Source: Deltaproteobacteria bacterium (GTDB lineage Bacteria > Desulfobacterota > Syntrophia > Syntrophales > Smithellaceae). From it: a stretch of 64,000 nt of DNA. This document shows, piece after piece, positions 2,883-12,636 of this stretch. Location of the stretch: assembly GCA_012729055.1 (NCBI GenBank), contig JAAYDW010000032.1, positions 1,839 to 65,838 of the forward strand. Direction: 5' to 3'. The first letter of the stretch is position 1; every line of letters starts with the position of its first letter. Under the pieces are notes generated by a model. That model was not told where the DNA came from. It saw only the letters and a program-made list of their open reading frames with translations, and searched no databases. The position numbers were made by a program, and so were the translations under genes.

Positions 2883-3989
2883 TTATCCCCGACCGGCCGC
2901 CGACGCCGGATCCGGCTCGAGCCATTTCGTCAAAAGCGGTTTTTCCTTTTGCGTCCAGTCCGCGGAAAAGCGAACCGCGAGGAAGGAGGCGTAAAGCGCA
3001 TCGAGCGTGGTGGCCGCTTTTTCAATGAGATAGATACGCTCGAGGAGCAGAGCCGACGGGTCTTCCTGGGCGTCCTGCCGGTCCCCAACCGGCATCCTGA
3101 GCGACTGGAAGTAAAACGTATCGGCTTTAAACGCAAACTCCCATTCGTTCGCGTCCCTGTGGAGTTTGATCCCCGCTTCCTTGACTTTCTTTCCCCGGCG
3201 GACGGCTTCCTTGCCTTCCGTCAGCTCGGCGTGTAGTCCGGAACAGACGACGCCCTGCGCATACTCCCCTTCGCCTGTTTCCAGAGCGATCCGTTTGAGC
3301 AGGTGCAGTTCGATATCTTCGGCAGGAGAAAGCGCGATGCGGCCGTTTCTTTCTTCGGACTTGAACCACAGCCAGGTGAGAAATTCCCGGCCGACGAGCG
3401 AAAGATCGTCAGCGGGGACTTCCGAACGGCTTTTGTGCTCCAGCGCGAGGGGAACCTCCTGGGGCAAAACGCGCCTGAGCGAGAGGGAAAAAGTTTTCTT
3501 GAACAAGTCGACAAAATCGTCCGCAATCTTGTCCGCCAGGGATGAAAAGTACACTTTCTTTTGCCCCACCGCCCATAAAACATCGTAAAAGGAGGGAACG
3601 GGGTCGCTTTTGGTCAGAAGCTCCAGTTTGATCTTTTCTCTGAGGCCTTCGGTTACCGCTTTGCCGACGCGGGGCTGATTGTGTTCGGCCATGAAACGCC
3701 TCTGTTCCTCCAGCAGGCGGATTTTCAGCAGACGGGCGGGAATCTGCTTGCGGTCCACGCGCAGCGAAAAAATCAGATAATCTCCCAGGGCGTAGTTCGC
3801 CTGTTCGAAATCGGAATCCAGAACATCCGTGGCGGACACCCAGCCCATCCGTTTTTCTTCCGTGGATGAGCGCGCTTCCCGAAAGGCGTTTTCCCGGATC
3901 CGGTTGTTGACAAACGTGTGAAAAGCCTGCGGCAGCGCGCCTTCCACCTCAAAACGCATAAAAGAGAAATTTCCTTTGATTAAAGCCAT
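2883..3989 (-). CDS. rdgC: recombination-associated protein RdgC
   Basis: N-terminus MALIKGNFSFMRFEV and overall pattern typical of RdgC. ATG at 3989 is preceded by GAGGTGA; the ORF-track start (GTG 4013) has no SD. Confidence 0.8.
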   Translation of the reverse strand: MALIKGNFSFMRFEVEGALPQAFHTFVNNRIRENAFREARSSTEEKRMGWVSATDVLDSDFEQANYALGDYLIFSLRVDRKQIPARLLKIRLLEEQRRFMAEHNQPRVGKAVTEGLREKIKLELLTKSDPVPSFYDVLWAVGQKKVYFSSLADKIADDFVDLFKKTFSLSLRRVLPQEVPLALEHKSRSEVPADDLSLVGREFLTWLWFKSEERNGRIALSPAEDIELHLLKRIALETGEGEYAQGVVCSGLHAELTEGKEAVRRGKKVKEAGIKLHRDANEWEFAFKADTFYFQSLRMPVGDRQDAQEDPSALLLERIYLIEKAATTLDALYASFLAVRFSADWTQKEKPLLTKWLEPDPASAAGRG

Positions 3990-4163
3990 TTTTATCACCT
4001 CATCGGCGCGCACCGTACCCTATCAAACGCGGTCCGTCAAGGATTTCTGCTTGCAAAATGCCCTGAGATATCATGGAGTTTTCACCCAAATGCCCGAAAT
4101 ATTTATCCGTGGACAGAGCCTTTTTTTTATGTTACGAAACGACGTCCTTGGGAGCATTTCAAG

Positions 4164-5057
4164 ATGAAAATTAAGAAAGTCGGCCTTGTTGCCAATATCG
4201 AAAAGGAAAACATCTCGGCGTTTGCCGGCGCGCTGGCCGGCTGGCTGGAAGACCGCAAGATCAGGGTTTCCCTGGAGGCGAACATCGCCGCCGCCATCGG
4301 CGGCAGCGGCGGTTTCAAACTCGATGATCTGGCCGCCCGGGTGGATCTGATCGCCGTTCTGGGCGGAGACGGCACGATGCTGCGCACCGCCCGCTACGTG
4401 GCGCATCACCCCGTGCCCATCGTCGGCATCAACATGGGAACCTTCGGCTACCTCACGGAAGTCAACCTGAACGAAACCTATGCGGCCCTGGATTTGATTC
4501 TGAAGGGCGATTGCACGACGGAAAAGCGCATGATGCTGGATGTCAAAATCCGCCGGGGCAATAAAACCATCGGCGGGGGCATTGTTCTCAACGACGTGGT
4601 GATCAACCGCGGCAATCTCTCGCGCATTGTCGAGCTGGAAACCTCCGTCAACAGCCAGTACCTGACCACCTACAAATCCGACGGGCTCATCATTTCCACT
4701 CCGACGGGATCCACGGCTTACTCCCTCTCGGCGGGCGGTCCGATTGTCTTTCCCGGCAAGGAACTCATTATCATCAATCCCATCTGCCCGCACACGCTGA
4801 CCAACCGTCCGGTGATCTTCCCCGAGAGTTCCGTTCTCACCGTCACACTGTGGTCGAAGGAAAGCGGCGCGACAGTGACGCTGGACGGGCAGGAATCCTA
4901 CCGGATCAGTTCCGGCGACGTCATGACGATCCGCAAATCCAGGCATTACACAAGGCTGGTTCTTTCGCCGCACCGAAGTTACGGGGAGATTTTGCGTTCT
5001 AAACTGGGTTGGGGCAGTTTGCCGTCAGAAGCCGGGAAGAGAAAAAATGCTTCATGA
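4164..5057 (+). CDS. nadK: NAD+ kinase
   Basis: GGDGTML and TPTGSTAYSLSAGGPIV motifs; 297 aa. Confidence 0.95.
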   Translation: MKIKKVGLVANIEKENISAFAGALAGWLEDRKIRVSLEANIAAAIGGSGGFKLDDLAARVDLIAVLGGDGTMLRTARYVAHHPVPIVGINMGTFGYLTEVNLNETYAALDLILKGDCTTEKRMMLDVKIRRGNKTIGGGIVLNDVVINRGNLSRIVELETSVNSQYLTTYKSDGLIISTPTGSTAYSLSAGGPIVFPGKELIIINPICPHTLTNRPVIFPESSVLTVTLWSKESGATVTLDGQESYRISSGDVMTIRKSRHYTRLVLSPHRSYGEILRSKLGWGSLPSEAGKRKNAS

Positions 5058-9920: not shown

Positions 9921-10472
9921 TTATTCTCCTGGCGGCTGGAGGAGTTTTCGCAGTTCGTCGGCAAAAATGTCACAGGTGTTTTGGTCGAACAAGACGTGGC
10001 GGATGAGCTGAATCTCCGTATTTTCCCCGGCGAAGTCCAGGCAGGCGGAAAGCGCAATGCGCGCGGCTTCATTGATCGGGTAGCCGTAAACCCCGCAGCT
10101 GATCGCCGGAAACGCGATGCTGTGCAGGCCCCGGCGCTTGGCGAGCTGAAGGCTGCTGGCATAAGCGGACGAAAGCAGCCGGGCTTCGCCGTGTCCGCCT
10201 CCGCGGTACACGGGACCGACGGTGTGGATGACATAACGGGCCTTGAGATTGCCGCCTGTCGTGATCACGGCCTCGCCCGTCGGACAGCCGCCGATTTTGC
10301 GGCATTCGGCCATGATGGCGGGGCCGCCGGCGCGGTGAATGGCCCCGTCGACGCCCGCGCCGCCCGCAAGCCGGCTGTTGGCGGCATTGACGATGGCGTC
10401 GGTTTCTTCTTCGGTAATGTCTCCGCGGACGAGTTCGATGACGGTTTGATTTCCGGTGATGCGCATGCTCAT
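9921..10472 (-). CDS. macro-domain protein, O-acetyl-ADP-ribose deacetylase (YmdB-like)
   Basis: GDITEEETDAIVNAAN...GGGVDGAIH-like motifs and IAFPAISCGVYGYP. Start is ATG 10472 (ATGA overlap with the upstream stop) or ATG 10466 (GGAGGA SD). Confidence 0.9.
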   Translation of the reverse strand: MSMRITGNQTVIELVRGDITEEETDAIVNAANSRLAGGAGVDGAIHRAGGPAIMAECRKIGGCPTGEAVITTGGNLKARYVIHTVGPVYRGGGHGEARLLSSAYASSLQLAKRRGLHSIAFPAISCGVYGYPINEAARIALSACLDFAGENTEIQLIRHVLFDQNTCDIFADELRKLLQPPGE

Positions 10473-12127
10473 TCCTCCCCGGTGATCCGCGTTCCTTCTC
10501 CGTAAACCAGCATCCGGTAGGTTTTTTCGATCCGGTCCCAGTTTTCCTCGCGGTCCATCGACCAGTAGCGTCCGATGACGGACACCACCTGCCCCAAACC
10601 GAGCGACAGACATTTTTCCTCCACCTGCCGGATGTAGCGAGCGCCGCTTGCGGCTTGTTCGCCGCGCCGCCCCAGCATGGAGTGGATGTACAAACGGGGA
10701 ACGCCCCGGCCGGCGGCCATGTCCATCAGGGCAAACAGGTGGTCGATCGAGCCGTGCGAACTGAAAAATGAGACGATTCCCATGAGGTGCAGCGCCCGGT
10801 CGTTTTTGACGGCCCGGTCCATGGCGCGGAGGAAAACGTCGTTTTGAGAAAAATCCTGCCGGGCGATCGACCGGTCGATATTCAGGCGGTCGGAGTAAAT
10901 GCGCCGGCCCGCGCCGATGTGCAGATGCCCCGCTTCGGAGTTGCCCACGGTTCCGGCGGGAAGACCCACAGCCAGGCCGGAGGCGGCGAGCCGCGCCGAA
11001 GGGAAGTCGCGAAGCAGCCGGTCCATCACCGGCGTGTCGGCGCAGGCGATCAGGTTATCCTGGGTGTTGTCACACAAACCCCAGCCGTCAAGAATGATCA
11101 ACAGCAGGCGCGAAACGGGGGCAGAGCAGGAGGGCTTGTCCGCAATCAGCGAGGCGCCGGTCATGGACGCAGGGCCGGGCAGGTCCAGCAAGTCCAGAAC
11201 CGTCGGAGCGATGTCCGTCAGTTCTCCTGCGGATTTCAGCGTCAGGTTTTGCTCCGGGTGCAGAAGAACAAAAGGCACGGGGCTGTCCGTATGTCCGGTG
11301 TCCACACCGCCGTTCGGGTAGCGCCATTTTTCCACCGTGCCGTGGTCGGCTGTGACGATGACGGTCATCTTTTCGCGGGCCGCTTCTTCGATGAGCAGTC
11401 CGGCATGGCGGTCCACCGCCGCGACGGCCCGGAGCACCGCCGGTTCGTTTTCAATATGGCCGACGACGTCGACGTTCGGAAGATTGACCACGATGAACCG
11501 GCAGGACGGATCCCGGATCTTCGCCAGCGCCGCGCGGGTGATGTCCGCAATCGACATTTCCGGCGCTTCGTCAAACAGTTTGACGTCCTTGCGCGTCGGA
11601 ATGACGATTCTTTCCTCGTTTCGCAGCGGGTCGGCTTTCTTGCCGTTGAAGAAGAAGCCGACATGAACCGCTTTTTCCGCTTCCGTGATCTTGGCCTGGG
11701 TGAAGCCCCGGCTGGCCAGGATATCGCTTAGCGTATCCGTCAGAACGCCCTGGGGCGGAAAAGCCACGTCGACATCCAAACCCTTCTGATATTCGATCAT
11801 CGTCGCAAAGTGGACGGGAAGATTGTCGTGGACGGGAAATCCGCGAAAGCCTTTTTCCGTAAAACTGCGCGTCAGTTCGATTTCGCGTTCGCCGCGGATA
11901 TTGTAAAAAATAATGGAGTCGTCCGGGGATATTCTTCCCAGCGGATTTTGCCGGGCGTCGGCAAGCACCAGCGGGAGAAGCGTCTCATCCTCCTGTCCCT
12001 GCGTGTAGGCGTCGGCAACCGCGCGGGACATGGGGAAGGAAATTTTTGTAGAGCACATGGGGGTATCCGTCTGTCCGTTTTTGGAGTGTATTTTTTCGAA
12101 GGAGTTATCTAGCGAAATAATGTCCAC
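10469..12127 (-). CDS. gpmI: 2,3-bisphosphoglycerate-independent phosphoglycerate mutase, circularly permuted domain order
   Basis: All iPGM signature blocks are present once, but reordered. Residues ~33-328 match the canonical C-terminal two thirds (IFYNIRGER, EAEKAVHVGFFFNG, DVVGH, TADHGT, TGHT). Residues ~339-552 match the canonical N-terminus (ILDGWG, VGNSEAGHLHIGAGR, GRYWSMDREENWDRIEKTY). Start codon is uncertain (GTG 12127 has no clear SD). Confidence 0.85.
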   Translation of the reverse strand: MDIISLDNSFEKIHSKNGQTDTPMCSTKISFPMSRAVADAYTQGQEDETLLPLVLADARQNPLGRISPDDSIIFYNIRGEREIELTRSFTEKGFRGFPVHDNLPVHFATMIEYQKGLDVDVAFPPQGVLTDTLSDILASRGFTQAKITEAEKAVHVGFFFNGKKADPLRNEERIVIPTRKDVKLFDEAPEMSIADITRAALAKIRDPSCRFIVVNLPNVDVVGHIENEPAVLRAVAAVDRHAGLLIEEAAREKMTVIVTADHGTVEKWRYPNGGVDTGHTDSPVPFVLLHPEQNLTLKSAGELTDIAPTVLDLLDLPGPASMTGASLIADKPSCSAPVSRLLLIILDGWGLCDNTQDNLIACADTPVMDRLLRDFPSARLAASGLAVGLPAGTVGNSEAGHLHIGAGRRIYSDRLNIDRSIARQDFSQNDVFLRAMDRAVKNDRALHLMGIVSFFSSHGSIDHLFALMDMAAGRGVPRLYIHSMLGRRGEQAASGARYIRQVEEKCLSLGLGQVVSVIGRYWSMDREENWDRIEKTYRMLVYGEGTRITGEE

Positions 12128-12243: not shown

Positions 12244-12636
12244 ATGCAGTCGCCCGGCTCAGGGAAACCCAATCAGCACGAGAGTCTGTGCGAAGAACTC
12301 CTCCGGGAGCGGGCGGCGGTTTTGAGTCGGGCCGGCTTTGCCGTGGAAGACGCGCTTGAGAAGCTTCTCAAGATCGACGGCGAGATCGAAGCAAGGATCC
12401 GGTACTGGCGGACCAAACTTCAGGAGGCCTCCGCCGGCGGGTTCCTGCCGGACCGGCAGTCGATTTTTGAAGATATCAATTCGATCATCGATCAGTACAA
12501 CACGGCCTGCCGGAAAGCCGAAATCCAGTTTTACTATCTGATCGTGACCCGTGAAGCGATGGGCCTGAGACGGCACGAAACGGTGCACCGGCTCTACCGG
12601 GTCCCCCCGAAAAAGAAAAAAATACAGGCCATTTAA
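12244..12636 (+). CDS. hypothetical helical protein, translationally coupled to pcm
   Basis: 130-aa ORF with protein-like composition. Its stop overlaps the pcm start (TAATG). Confidence 0.55.
   Translation: MQSPGSGKPNQHESLCEELLRERAAVLSRAGFAVEDALEKLLKIDGEIEARIRYWRTKLQEASAGGFLPDRQSIFEDINSIIDQYNTACRKAEIQFYYLIVTREAMGLRRHETVHRLYRVPPKKKKIQAI

What the first reader, a model, noticed from the sequence alone, without database searches (positions are those of the whole stretch)
10469..12127. Naturally circularly permuted cofactor-independent phosphoglycerate mutase
Seen in sequence: a single uninterrupted 552-aa ORF contains every iPGM signature once, in permuted order. Residues ~33-328 (nt ~12031..11144) correspond to the canonical C-terminal part: GQEDETLLPLV (the ...DEFV.P region), IFYNIRGEREIE, EAEKAVHVGFFFNG, PEMS, NLPNVDVVGH, TADHGT, TGHT, MTGASLI. 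A short linker, ADKPSCSAPV, follows. Residues ~339-552 (nt ~11113..10472) are then the canonical N-terminus: LIILDGWG with the metal Asp, VGNSEAGHLHIGAGR with the phospho-Ser, HLMGIVS..SHGSIDHL, and GRYWSMDREENWDRIEKTY. In the known iPGM fold both native termini lie in the phosphatase domain, so a short linker joining them is geometrically plausible. The new termini fall inside the transferase domain. The catalytic and metal residues I can recognise are retained, suggesting a functional enzyme rather than debris. I am not aware of a described permuted iPGM. No other PGM gene is visible in this window.
Basis: partly seen in the sequence, partly recalled or inferred. Interest (0 to 1): 0.7.

Follow-up and report, generated by a model that had tools for sequence, protein, structure and literature searches.

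The report
Circularly permuted cofactor-independent phosphoglycerate mutase
This gene encodes a glycolytic-type enzyme (cofactor-independent phosphoglycerate mutase) whose two sequence halves are naturally swapped; the swapped form is real, conserved across a whole bacterial order, and apparently not described in the literature I could search.

Summary
The ORF at 10469-12127 (-) matches G. stearothermophilus iPGM (1EJJ) in two reordered blocks: ORF aa 341-546 = iPGM 6-211 and aa 36-329 = iPGM 219-510, joined by an 11-residue new linker. The likely start is ATG 12058, giving 529 aa.

It is not a misassembly. More than 120 protein clusters at 63-100% identity are collinear with it. The 80 best genome matches are all Syntrophales, including closed chromosomes and cultured Syntrophus buswellii. 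dN/dS is 0.12-0.16. An AlphaFold model (pLDDT 85.6, pTM 0.82) hits only iPGM structures.

All metal ligands, the phosphoserine and eight of nine substrate-contact residues are kept. The near-invariant DGRD motif is GRRG(E) here, and several other signature motifs differ. These changes are shared with permuted relatives in other phyla ("group 1"). A second small set ("group 2") keeps every canonical motif and sits in a pgi operon. Whether the permutation arose once or twice is unresolved.

In Syntrophales the gene is translationally coupled to a macro-domain gene. The most likely function is still a Mn-dependent 3PG/2PG mutase (about 0.6); a changed specificity is not excluded. No publication on this was found: a new variant of a known kind.

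The parts
10469..12058 (-). Coding sequence of the permuted iPGM (529 aa plus TGA stop), counted from the probable ATG start at 12058. The open frame extends upstream to a GTG at 12127 (552 codons).
   Evidence: ORF list and translation. Homologues of 519-530 aa align from M24. dN/dS is 0.12-0.16 against five orthologues.
11141..12022 (-). Segment equivalent to canonical iPGM residues 219-510 (ORF aa 36-329). It comprises the second part of the transferase domain, hinge 2 and the C-terminal part of the phosphatase domain, with R261/R264, K336, D403, H407, D444, H445 and H462 equivalents.
   Evidence: phmmer alignment to 1EJJ; TIGR01307 positions 214-504; residue map.
11108..11140 (-). New linker (ORF aa 330-340, DKPSCSAPVSR) joining the old C-terminus to the old N-terminus. 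Its length is roughly conserved in the family but its sequence is variable.
   Evidence: It is the gap between the two aligned blocks. The family alignment shows a variable linker of about 9-12 residues. AF2 pLDDT over this stretch is 85-87.
10490..11107 (-). Segment equivalent to canonical iPGM residues 6-211 (ORF aa 341-546). It comprises the N-terminal phosphatase-domain strand with Asp12, the phospho-Ser62 motif GNSEAGH, hinge 1 and the first part of the transferase domain (H123, R153, R185, R191 equivalents).
   Evidence: Ungapped phmmer alignment to 1EJJ 6-211; iPGM_N model positions 1-130 at ORF 417-546; residue map.
10937..10939 (-). Codon of the predicted phosphoserine nucleophile (ORF Ser397 = Ser374 in the 529-aa numbering = Ser62 of 1EJJ).
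   Evidence: Alignment. Invariant in all 52 family members and in all permuted groups.
10658..10672 (-). GRRGE (ORF aa 486-490), replacing the canonical DGRD(V) motif at 1EJJ 151-155. Asp154 is replaced by Gly and the next residue is an invariant Glu.
   Evidence: Column comparison with 120 canonical representatives: D151 100%, G152 100%, R153 94%, D154 99% conserved. G463 R464 R465 G466 E467 are invariant in the family.
9921..10472 (-). Macro-domain gene (183 aa, O-acetyl-ADP-ribose deacetylase type). Its ATG overlaps the iPGM TGA stop (ATGA), so it is probably the co-translated operon partner.
   Evidence: Sequence ...GAATGAGCATG.... Pfam Macro 3.9e-47. NF001664 220.9 bits against a cutoff of 200. 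Present immediately downstream on the same strand in 73 of 80 Syntrophales loci, with most starts within -11..+1 nt of the iPGM stop.

Best explanation
The ORF encodes a functional, naturally circularly permuted member of the bacterial-type cofactor-independent phosphoglycerate mutase family (GpmI, TIGR01307). The chain begins in a surface loop in the middle of the transferase domain (canonical residue ~217). It runs through the second half of that domain and hinge 2 into the C-terminal part of the alkaline-phosphatase-like domain. An ~11-residue new linker then joins the old C-terminus to the old N-terminal strand. The chain continues through the Asp12 and Ser62 motifs and hinge 1, and ends with the first half of the transferase domain (canonical ~216). 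As a result the phosphatase domain becomes one contiguous segment and the transferase domain becomes the discontinuous one. Both hinges and the two-domain open/close architecture are preserved. It most likely still works as iPGM does: a binuclear Mn2+ site transfers the phosphate of 3-PG or 2-PG to the serine, the glycerate reorients in the transferase domain, and the phosphate is returned to the other hydroxyl. It would then serve as the GpmI-type mutase for gluconeogenesis and glycolysis in Syntrophales. Shown: the permutation, conservation, purifying selection, the fold, and retention of the metal, nucleophile and Arg/Lys/His residues. Inferred: the enzymatic activity and its physiological role.
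For: Two reordered, high-scoring blocks against 1EJJ and TIGR01307. The family is collinear with the query in more than 120 clusters at 63-100% identity. 284 species genomes encode a relative; the best 80 are all Syntrophales, each with a match covering nearly the whole query, and include closed chromosomes and cultured S. buswellii DM-2. dN/dS is 0.12-0.16. The AF2 model has pLDDT 85.6 and pTM 0.82, with a confidently placed linker. The 22 Foldseek PDB matches with E <= 0.001 are all iPGM (1EJJ E 3e-16), each aligning about 300 columns, as expected from a sequence-order-dependent aligner on a permutant. D12, S62, H66, H123, R153, R185, R191, R261, R264, K336, D403, H407, D444, H445 and H462 equivalents are all conserved. 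The gene sits in a conserved housekeeping neighbourhood (dciA, pcm, nlpD-like, carD, ispDF) and is near-universal in the order, which suggests a core function. Foster et al. 2010 found no dPGM and only one bacterial-type iPGM hit in S. aciditrophicus (PMC2964296 Table S1). Relatives with the same topology lie in phosphoglycerate-related operons: directly after pgi and directly after a cyclic 2,3-diphosphoglycerate synthetase homologue, whose pathway starts from 2-PG (pathway from my own knowledge).
Against: No activity data exist. Asp154, 99% conserved in canonical iPGM, is Gly here. The DGRD, GVHS, RxDRA, DMVGHTG and DHGN signatures are all altered (GRRGE, SSHG, RGERE, DVVGHIE, DHGT), mostly in or near the substrate-binding and metal sites. 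S. aciditrophicus has three archaeal-type iPGM homologues that could supply PGM activity. The conserved operon partner is a macro-domain protein, which has no known link to glycolysis. Several group-1 relatives lie in non-glycolytic contexts: ABC transporters, GDPD, and one next to an ApgM-type gene. I did not directly verify that the single S. aciditrophicus iPGM hit is the permuted gene.
Confidence: 0.62

Rival explanations
1. Neofunctionalised permutant. The 'group 1' permuted proteins, including the Syntrophales form, keep the phosphoserine/bimetal chemistry but act on a different phosphorylated substrate, or act as a phosphatase or transferase. True PGM activity in these organisms would then come from ApgM-type enzymes. 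In Syntrophales the activity may be linked to the co-translated macro-domain protein.
For: A block of shared derived substitutions occurs at positions 85-100% conserved in canonical iPGM: D154 to G/S, V122S/S124G, D263E, N447 to T/L, T408/G409 changed. These are seen in permuted group-1 proteins and in none of about 246 canonical-topology sequences on hand. S. aciditrophicus has three ApgM-type homologues. The ATGA-coupled macro gene is present in 73 of 80 Syntrophales loci. One group-1 gene lies directly next to an ApgM-type gene with a HAD hydrolase and a PRK-family kinase. Others lie next to ABC importers and GDPD.
Against: Eight of nine substrate-contact residues, including both Arg pairs and Lys336, are retained. 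An invariant Glu follows the lost Asp and might replace it. Near-universal presence in the order and a housekeeping neighbourhood point to a core function. The macro neighbour is absent from the non-Syntrophales permutants examined, so the link may be lineage-specific gene order. A cDPG-synthetase operon partner in one group-1 relative fits supply of 2-PG by a true PGM.
Confidence: 0.3
2. Assembly or annotation artefact: a chimeric junction near 11108-11140, or a wrongly started contig, mimics a permutation.
For: None beyond the prior possibility for metagenome-derived sequence.
Against: The same order and the same junction occur in 80 of the 80 independent genome loci listed, from many projects. 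These include long-read closed chromosomes (OY820932.1, OY821638.1, OY764159.1, OY762510.1) and the complete genome of S. buswellii DM-2. They also occur in hundreds of metagenome contigs. The linker varies in sequence while the flanks are conserved. The flanking genes are conserved on both sides.
Confidence: 0.01
3. A decaying or catalytically dead remnant retained for a structural or regulatory role.
For: Loss of the DGRD motif.
Against: dN/dS is 0.12-0.16. About 150 columns are invariant, including every metal ligand and the nucleophile, across 52 sequences down to 63% identity. The ORF is intact in all loci.
Confidence: 0.04

Closest known systems
Canonical bacterial cofactor-independent phosphoglycerate mutase (GpmI/GpmM; TIGR01307; PDB 1EJJ, 1O98, 2IFY, 4MY4)
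   Same: About 35-41% sequence identity over both blocks. Same two domains (Pfam Metalloenzyme and iPGM_N), same metal ligands, phosphoserine motif and Arg/Lys/His substrate residues, and the same predicted fold.
   Different: The sequence order is circularly permuted: the cut lies at canonical ~211/219 and the old termini are fused by an ~11-residue linker. The phosphatase domain is contiguous and the transferase domain is split, the reverse of the canonical layout. DGRD becomes GRRG(E), and several other signatures are changed.
'Group 2' permuted iPGMs (P0125, P0317, P0319, P0127, P0131; uncultured bacteria)
   Same: Same permutation, with the cut site within a few residues and a short linker.
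   Different: They keep every canonical signature (DGRD, GVHS, RxDRA, DMVGHTG, DHGN) and are about 50% identical to canonical iPGMs but only about 40% to the Syntrophales form. P0125 and P0317 sit in an overlapping pgi-iPGM operon. It is unresolved whether they share the permutation event with the Syntrophales clade.
Archaeal-type iPGM (ApgM; TIGR00306, Pfam PhosphMutase) and phosphopentomutase
   Same: Same alkaline-phosphatase-superfamily core and metal site. Weak hits to the phosphatase-domain part (TIGR00306 38.8 bits; phosphopentomutase 30.6 bits).
   Different: Far below the family cutoffs (320 and 254 bits). Their cap domain differs and they are not related to this protein by permutation. 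S. aciditrophicus carries three ApgM-type genes in addition.
Other natural circular permutants of enzymes (from my own knowledge: swaposins, transaldolases, DNA methyltransferases, glucansucrases, some beta-glucanases)
   Same: The concept is the same: an identical fold with rearranged sequence order, classically explained by tandem duplication followed by loss of the outer halves.
   Different: No iPGM example turned up in the literature searches. No tandem-duplicated intermediate was seen among the 150 closest 50%-identity representatives.

Membership tests
Bacterial-type iPGM (GpmI, TIGR01307) | Sequence scores above the family's trusted cutoff | tested here: met
   TIGR01307 at 464.1 bits against a cutoff of 330.65, E 4.6e-139, but as two reordered stretches. 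The PRK05434-type equivalog NF003897 scores 392 bits against a cutoff of 862, so that one is not met.
Bacterial-type iPGM (GpmI, TIGR01307) | Alkaline-phosphatase-like metalloenzyme domain plus iPGM-specific transferase domain | tested here: met
   PF01676 at 2.8e-52 and PF06415 at 4e-52. The AF2 model's significant PDB matches are exclusively iPGM.
Bacterial-type iPGM (GpmI, TIGR01307) | Canonical collinear order: phosphatase N-part, then the inserted transferase domain, then phosphatase C-part | tested here: not met
   ORF 341-546 = 1EJJ 6-211 and ORF 36-329 = 1EJJ 219-510. It is a circular permutant.
Bacterial-type iPGM (GpmI, TIGR01307) | Phosphoserine nucleophile and binuclear metal ligands (1EJJ D12, S62, D403, H407, D444, H445, H462; roles from my knowledge of Jedrzejas et al. 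2000) | tested here: met
   All are conserved in the query and invariant in 52 family members.
Bacterial-type iPGM (GpmI, TIGR01307) | Substrate-contact residues (H123, R153, D154, R185, R191, R261, R264, K336; H66) | tested here: inconclusive
   All are retained except D154, which is Gly and is followed by an invariant Glu. The surrounding DGRD motif is GRRG(E).
Bacterial-type iPGM (GpmI, TIGR01307) | Mn2+-dependent, 2,3-BPG-independent interconversion of 3-PG and 2-PG | not testable with these tools
   Requires an enzyme assay or genetic complementation.
Archaeal-type iPGM (ApgM, TIGR00306) | Score above the family cutoff and presence of the PhosphMutase cap domain | tested here: not met
   TIGR00306 at 38.8 bits against a cutoff of 320. 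No PF10143 hit.
Natural circular permutant (general class) | Two collinear blocks in swapped order covering the whole homologous fold once, old termini joined, and inherited as a stable gene | tested here: met
   A permutation-aware 3D superposition could not be run because no model coordinates are accessible.

The most novel reading that the evidence does not exclude
The permuted 'group 1' proteins would be more than topological variants of PGM. They would form a distinct enzyme family in which permutation accompanied remodelling of the transferase-domain active site (loss of Asp154/DGRD; SSHG, RGERE). That remodelling would give a new substrate specificity or reaction. In Syntrophales the enzyme would work together with the translationally coupled macro-domain protein, for example on an ADP-ribose-derived or other phosphorylated metabolite. 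In addition, the same cut site would have been hit independently at least twice (groups 1 and 2).
Probability: 0.22. Interest if true: 0.78.

Novelty: new variant of a known kind. Interest (0 to 1): 0.55.

Why it matters
iPGM is a central glycolytic and gluconeogenic enzyme and a drug target in nematodes, trypanosomatids and some bacteria. Its catalysis depends on a large hinge motion between two domains connected by two crossovers.

A natural permutant fixed across a whole order, and present in other phyla, offers three things:
- It is a ready-made experiment on how chain connectivity affects domain closure, folding and catalysis.
- It may be a case where permutation goes together with active-site remodelling.
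- It shows that homology-based annotation currently mislabels these genes as 'alkaline phosphatase family protein', 'hypothetical protein' or ordinary GpmI.

It also bears on metabolic reconstructions of syntrophic benzoate, fatty-acid and alkane degraders (Syntrophus, Smithella), where the identity of the PGM step is simply assumed.

Tried and rejected
**Origin of the permutation**
- I un-permuted 18-20 permutants, aligned them with 113-153 canonical representatives, and ran NJ with bootstrap and four-point quartet analysis.
- The permutants fall into a clade of 15 and a clade of 3 that do not join (0 of 50 bootstraps).
- Quartets split 46% for monophyly against 49% for group 2 grouping with its nearest canonical relatives. 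With random canonical pairs, 53% favour g1+g2.
- Single versus double origin is therefore unresolved. No ML tree software was available.

**Duplication-deletion intermediates**
- Every long hit (600-2349 aa) among the top 150 representatives contains each half only once, so no tandem intermediate was found.

**Permutation-aware structural superposition**
- This was not possible because model coordinates are not exposed. Foldseek is order-dependent and aligns only about 300 columns.

**Literature**
- The founding structure paper (Jedrzejas 2000) is not held, so residue roles rest on my own knowledge.
- Searches for permuted iPGM, for Asp154, and for Syntrophus proteomics of this protein gave nothing useful.

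**Taxonomy**
- Group 2 and several group-1b clusters carry no names in the source databases.

**Other checks**
- The local Pfam copy lacks the CpgS_N model. I replaced that check with a PDB sequence search.
- Misassembly, pseudogene and ApgM membership were considered and rejected, as listed above.
Full report
**1. The observation**

The minus strand carries one uninterrupted ORF at 10469-12127 (552 codons from a GTG). A phmmer search against all PDB sequences gives G. stearothermophilus iPGM (1EJJ) at E 1.1e-107. The match falls into two stretches whose order is swapped:
- ORF 341-546 aligns, ungapped, with 1EJJ 6-211.
- ORF 36-329 aligns with 1EJJ 219-510.

The NCBIfam equivalog TIGR01307 scores 464 bits (cutoff 330.65), again in two reordered pieces. 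Pfam reports Metalloenzyme and iPGM_N in two stretches each, with iPGM_N model positions 1-130 at the C-terminus of the ORF. Residues 330-340 (DKPSCSAPVSR) between the blocks are a new linker joining the old C-terminus to the old N-terminus.

One correction is needed. Homologues are 519-530 aa and align from Met24, so the true start is probably the ATG at 12058, giving 529 aa. No other iPGM-superfamily ORF and no dPGM-type motif is present in the 64-kb window.

**2. It is real and inherited**

A search of 5.8 billion proteins returned more than 120 clusters at 63-100% identity. Each covers 93-99% of the query in one local alignment, so all share the permuted order.

In one-genome-per-species GTDB contigs, 284 stretches encode a relative. 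The best 80 (61-90% identity, each matching nearly the whole query) are all Syntrophales: Smithellaceae, Syntrophaceae and Syntrophus. They include several closed long-read chromosomes and the complete genome of cultured Syntrophus buswellii DM-2. The window itself is closest to 'Syntrophaceae bacterium UBA1411' (90% aa).

Flanking genes are conserved on both sides. The linker varies in sequence while the flanks are conserved. dN/dS against five orthologues is 0.12-0.16. Misassembly and pseudogene explanations are therefore excluded.

**3. Structure**

An AlphaFold2 model built on 52 family members has mean pLDDT 85.6 and pTM 0.82, and the linker region is at pLDDT 85-87. Foldseek against the PDB gives 22 hits with E <= 0.001. 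All are iPGMs (1EJJ E 3e-16, probability 1.0). Each aligns about 260-305 columns with TM about 0.4-0.5 normalised on full length. This is the expected behaviour when a sequence-order-dependent aligner can superpose only one of the two blocks.

The domain boundaries used here are from my own knowledge of Jedrzejas et al. 2000: phosphatase domain 1-76 plus 311-511, transferase domain 77-310. With those boundaries, the cut at about 211/219 lies in a loop of the transferase domain. In the model this loop sits between a short strand (523-526) and the helix at residues 9-19.

The connectivity is thus inverted relative to canonical iPGM. The phosphatase domain becomes one contiguous segment and the transferase domain is assembled from the two chain ends. 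Both inter-domain hinges are kept.

**4. Active site**

I un-permuted the sequences and aligned them with 120 canonical 50%-identity representatives and with 1EJJ.

Conserved in the query, and invariant in its family:
- Metal ligands D12, D403, H407, D444, H445 and H462.
- The nucleophile S62.
- H66, H123, R153, R185, R191, R261, R264 and K336.

Changed motifs:

| Canonical motif | Syntrophales form | Note |
|---|---|---|
| DGRD (151-154) | GRRG, followed by an invariant Glu | Canonical conservation 100/100/94/99% |
| GVHS | SSHG | |
| RxDRA | RGERE | |
| DMVGHTG | DVVGHIE | |
| DHGN | DHGT | |

**5. Wider family**

An exhaustive HMMER scan of 1.84 billion 50%-identity representatives shows 14 full or nearly full permuted representatives among the best 150 hits. 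Four further fragments cover only part of the protein. They fall into two sets.

Group 1:
- It comprises the Syntrophales family plus P0121, P0128, P0130, P0148, P0150, P0174, P0231 and P0255.
- Members come from Ca. Desulfofervidus auxilii, Limnochordia (Bacillota) and a 'Pseudomonadota' MAG, among others.
- The set shares the derived motif states SSHG, R.ERE, D154 to S/G and loss of DHGN, with individual exceptions such as P0128, which keeps DHGN. The states were found in permuted proteins and in none of about 246 canonical-topology sequences on hand.

Group 2:
- It comprises P0125, P0127 and P0131, plus P0317-P0321.
- It keeps every canonical motif. It is about 50% identical to canonical iPGMs but only about 40% to group 1.
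- The P0125 family is tiny: six clusters.

NJ trees never unite the two groups (0 of 50 bootstraps). Quartet analysis is evenly split (46% against 49%). Whether the permutation arose once, with group 2 as a slowly evolving branch, or twice at the same permissive loop remains open. No tandem-duplicated intermediate was seen.

**6. Genomic context**

In the window the iPGM TGA overlaps the ATG of a macro-domain gene (ATGA; 9921-10472, O-acetyl-ADP-ribose deacetylase type). The macro gene lies immediately downstream on the same strand in 73 of 80 Syntrophales loci. Most starts are within -11..+1 nt of the iPGM stop.

Upstream and divergent are a conserved 130-aa ORF without family hits, then pcm, an M23/LysM peptidase, carD, a PIN-TRAM protein and ispDF. 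Downstream of the macro gene is dciA. This is a housekeeping neighbourhood.

Permutants outside the Syntrophales have other neighbours:

| Set | Protein (locus) | Neighbouring genes |
|---|---|---|
| Group 2 | P0125, P0317 | Overlapping pgi-iPGM operon |
| Group 1 | P0436 (L092) | Follows, with 4-nt overlap, a cyclic 2,3-diphosphoglycerate synthetase homologue (E 1e-121 to 8ORK) |
| Group 1 | P0128 | HAD hydrolase on one side; ApgM-type gene then a PRK-family kinase on the other |
| Group 1 | P0150 | Overlaps the end of a 2142-aa protein with PPDK_N and P-loop kinase domains |
| Group 1 | P0174, P0286 | ABC importers, and GDPD next to P0286 |
| Group 1 | Limnochordia | Next to a phosphohexomutase |

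The macro link is therefore Syntrophales-specific. The pgi and cDPG-synthetase contexts speak for phosphoglycerates as substrates of permuted enzymes.

**7. Function**

Foster et al. 2010 (PMC2964296, Table S1) report for S. aciditrophicus SB no dPGM, one bacterial-type iPGM hit and three archaeal-type iPGM homologues. They do not mention any permutation. I infer, but did not verify, that the single hit is the permuted gene.

For a true PGM role:
- The complete catalytic machinery is retained.
- The gene is near-universal in the order and under strong constraint.
- It is the only GpmI-type gene.
- Relatives sit in phosphoglycerate-related operons.

Against:
- Asp154 and other signatures are lost.
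- ApgM-type paralogues are available.
- The operon partner is unexplained.

I put PGM function at about 0.6 and a changed specificity at about 0.3.

**8. Comparison and novelty**

It works like, and is homologous to, GpmI-type iPGM. It fails one defining feature of that family as currently modelled, collinear domain order, and one signature motif. Four full-text literature searches found no description of a permuted iPGM.

The databases label these proteins inconsistently: 'alkaline phosphatase family protein', 'hypothetical protein' or plain iPGM. I therefore class it as a new variant of a known kind.

It is of moderate-to-good interest for enzyme evolution and structural enzymology. The interest would be higher if the active-site remodelling proves to mean a new reaction, or if recurrent origin is confirmed.

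Noticed in passing
window 9921-10472 (-): A macro-domain gene (O-acetyl-ADP-ribose deacetylase type; NF001664 at 220.9 bits) has a start codon that overlaps the iPGM stop (ATGA). The pairing is conserved in 73 of 80 Syntrophales loci but absent from the permutants examined outside the order. No functional link between macro domains and PGM is known to me.
   Followed up: partly
window 12244-12636 (+): A 130-aa ORF lies divergent from the iPGM gene and directly upstream of pcm. It has no Pfam or NCBIfam hit, yet it is conserved at the same position in 70 of 80 Syntrophales loci.
   Followed up: partly
L086 5556-8626 and L088 5620-8626: 'Group 2' permuted iPGMs with fully canonical motifs form an overlapping pgi-iPGM operon. 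Their family is tiny (six clusters), and their nearest relatives beyond it are canonical iPGMs at about 51% identity. This may be an independent, younger permutation.
   Followed up: partly
L092 264-3202: A bacterial homologue of archaeal cyclic 2,3-diphosphoglycerate synthetase (E 1e-121 to PDB 8ORK) is followed, with a 4-nt overlap, by a group-1 permuted iPGM-like gene. This suggests a cDPG-type compatible-solute operon in an uncultured bacterium.
   Followed up: partly
L089 66-4873: The cluster reads HAD hydrolase, permuted iPGM-like, ApgM-type iPGM homologue, PRK-family kinase, followed by LacI and KduI. Two different PGM-like genes sit side by side, which argues that at least one of them is not a plain PGM.
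   Followed up: no
protein P0224 (5027 aa), residues ~3861-4376: A giant predicted protein with apparent hydrophobic (possibly membrane-spanning) stretches and internally repeated segments contains an embedded permuted iPGM module with mostly canonical motifs (FLNFRSDR, DMVGH, ADHGNAE, FLDGRDE). I did not check whether this is a real fusion or a gene-calling artefact.
   Followed up: no
L084 389-8345: In a relative of Ca. Desulfofervidus auxilii, the permuted iPGM-like gene overlaps by 44 nt the end of a 2142-aa protein carrying a PPDK_N (PEP/pyruvate dikinase ATP-binding) domain and P-loop kinase-like regions.
   Followed up: no
database annotations of P0003, P0014, P0031, P0049, P0303-P0308: [quoted passage not shown] None of the names seen mentions the permutation.
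   Followed up: no
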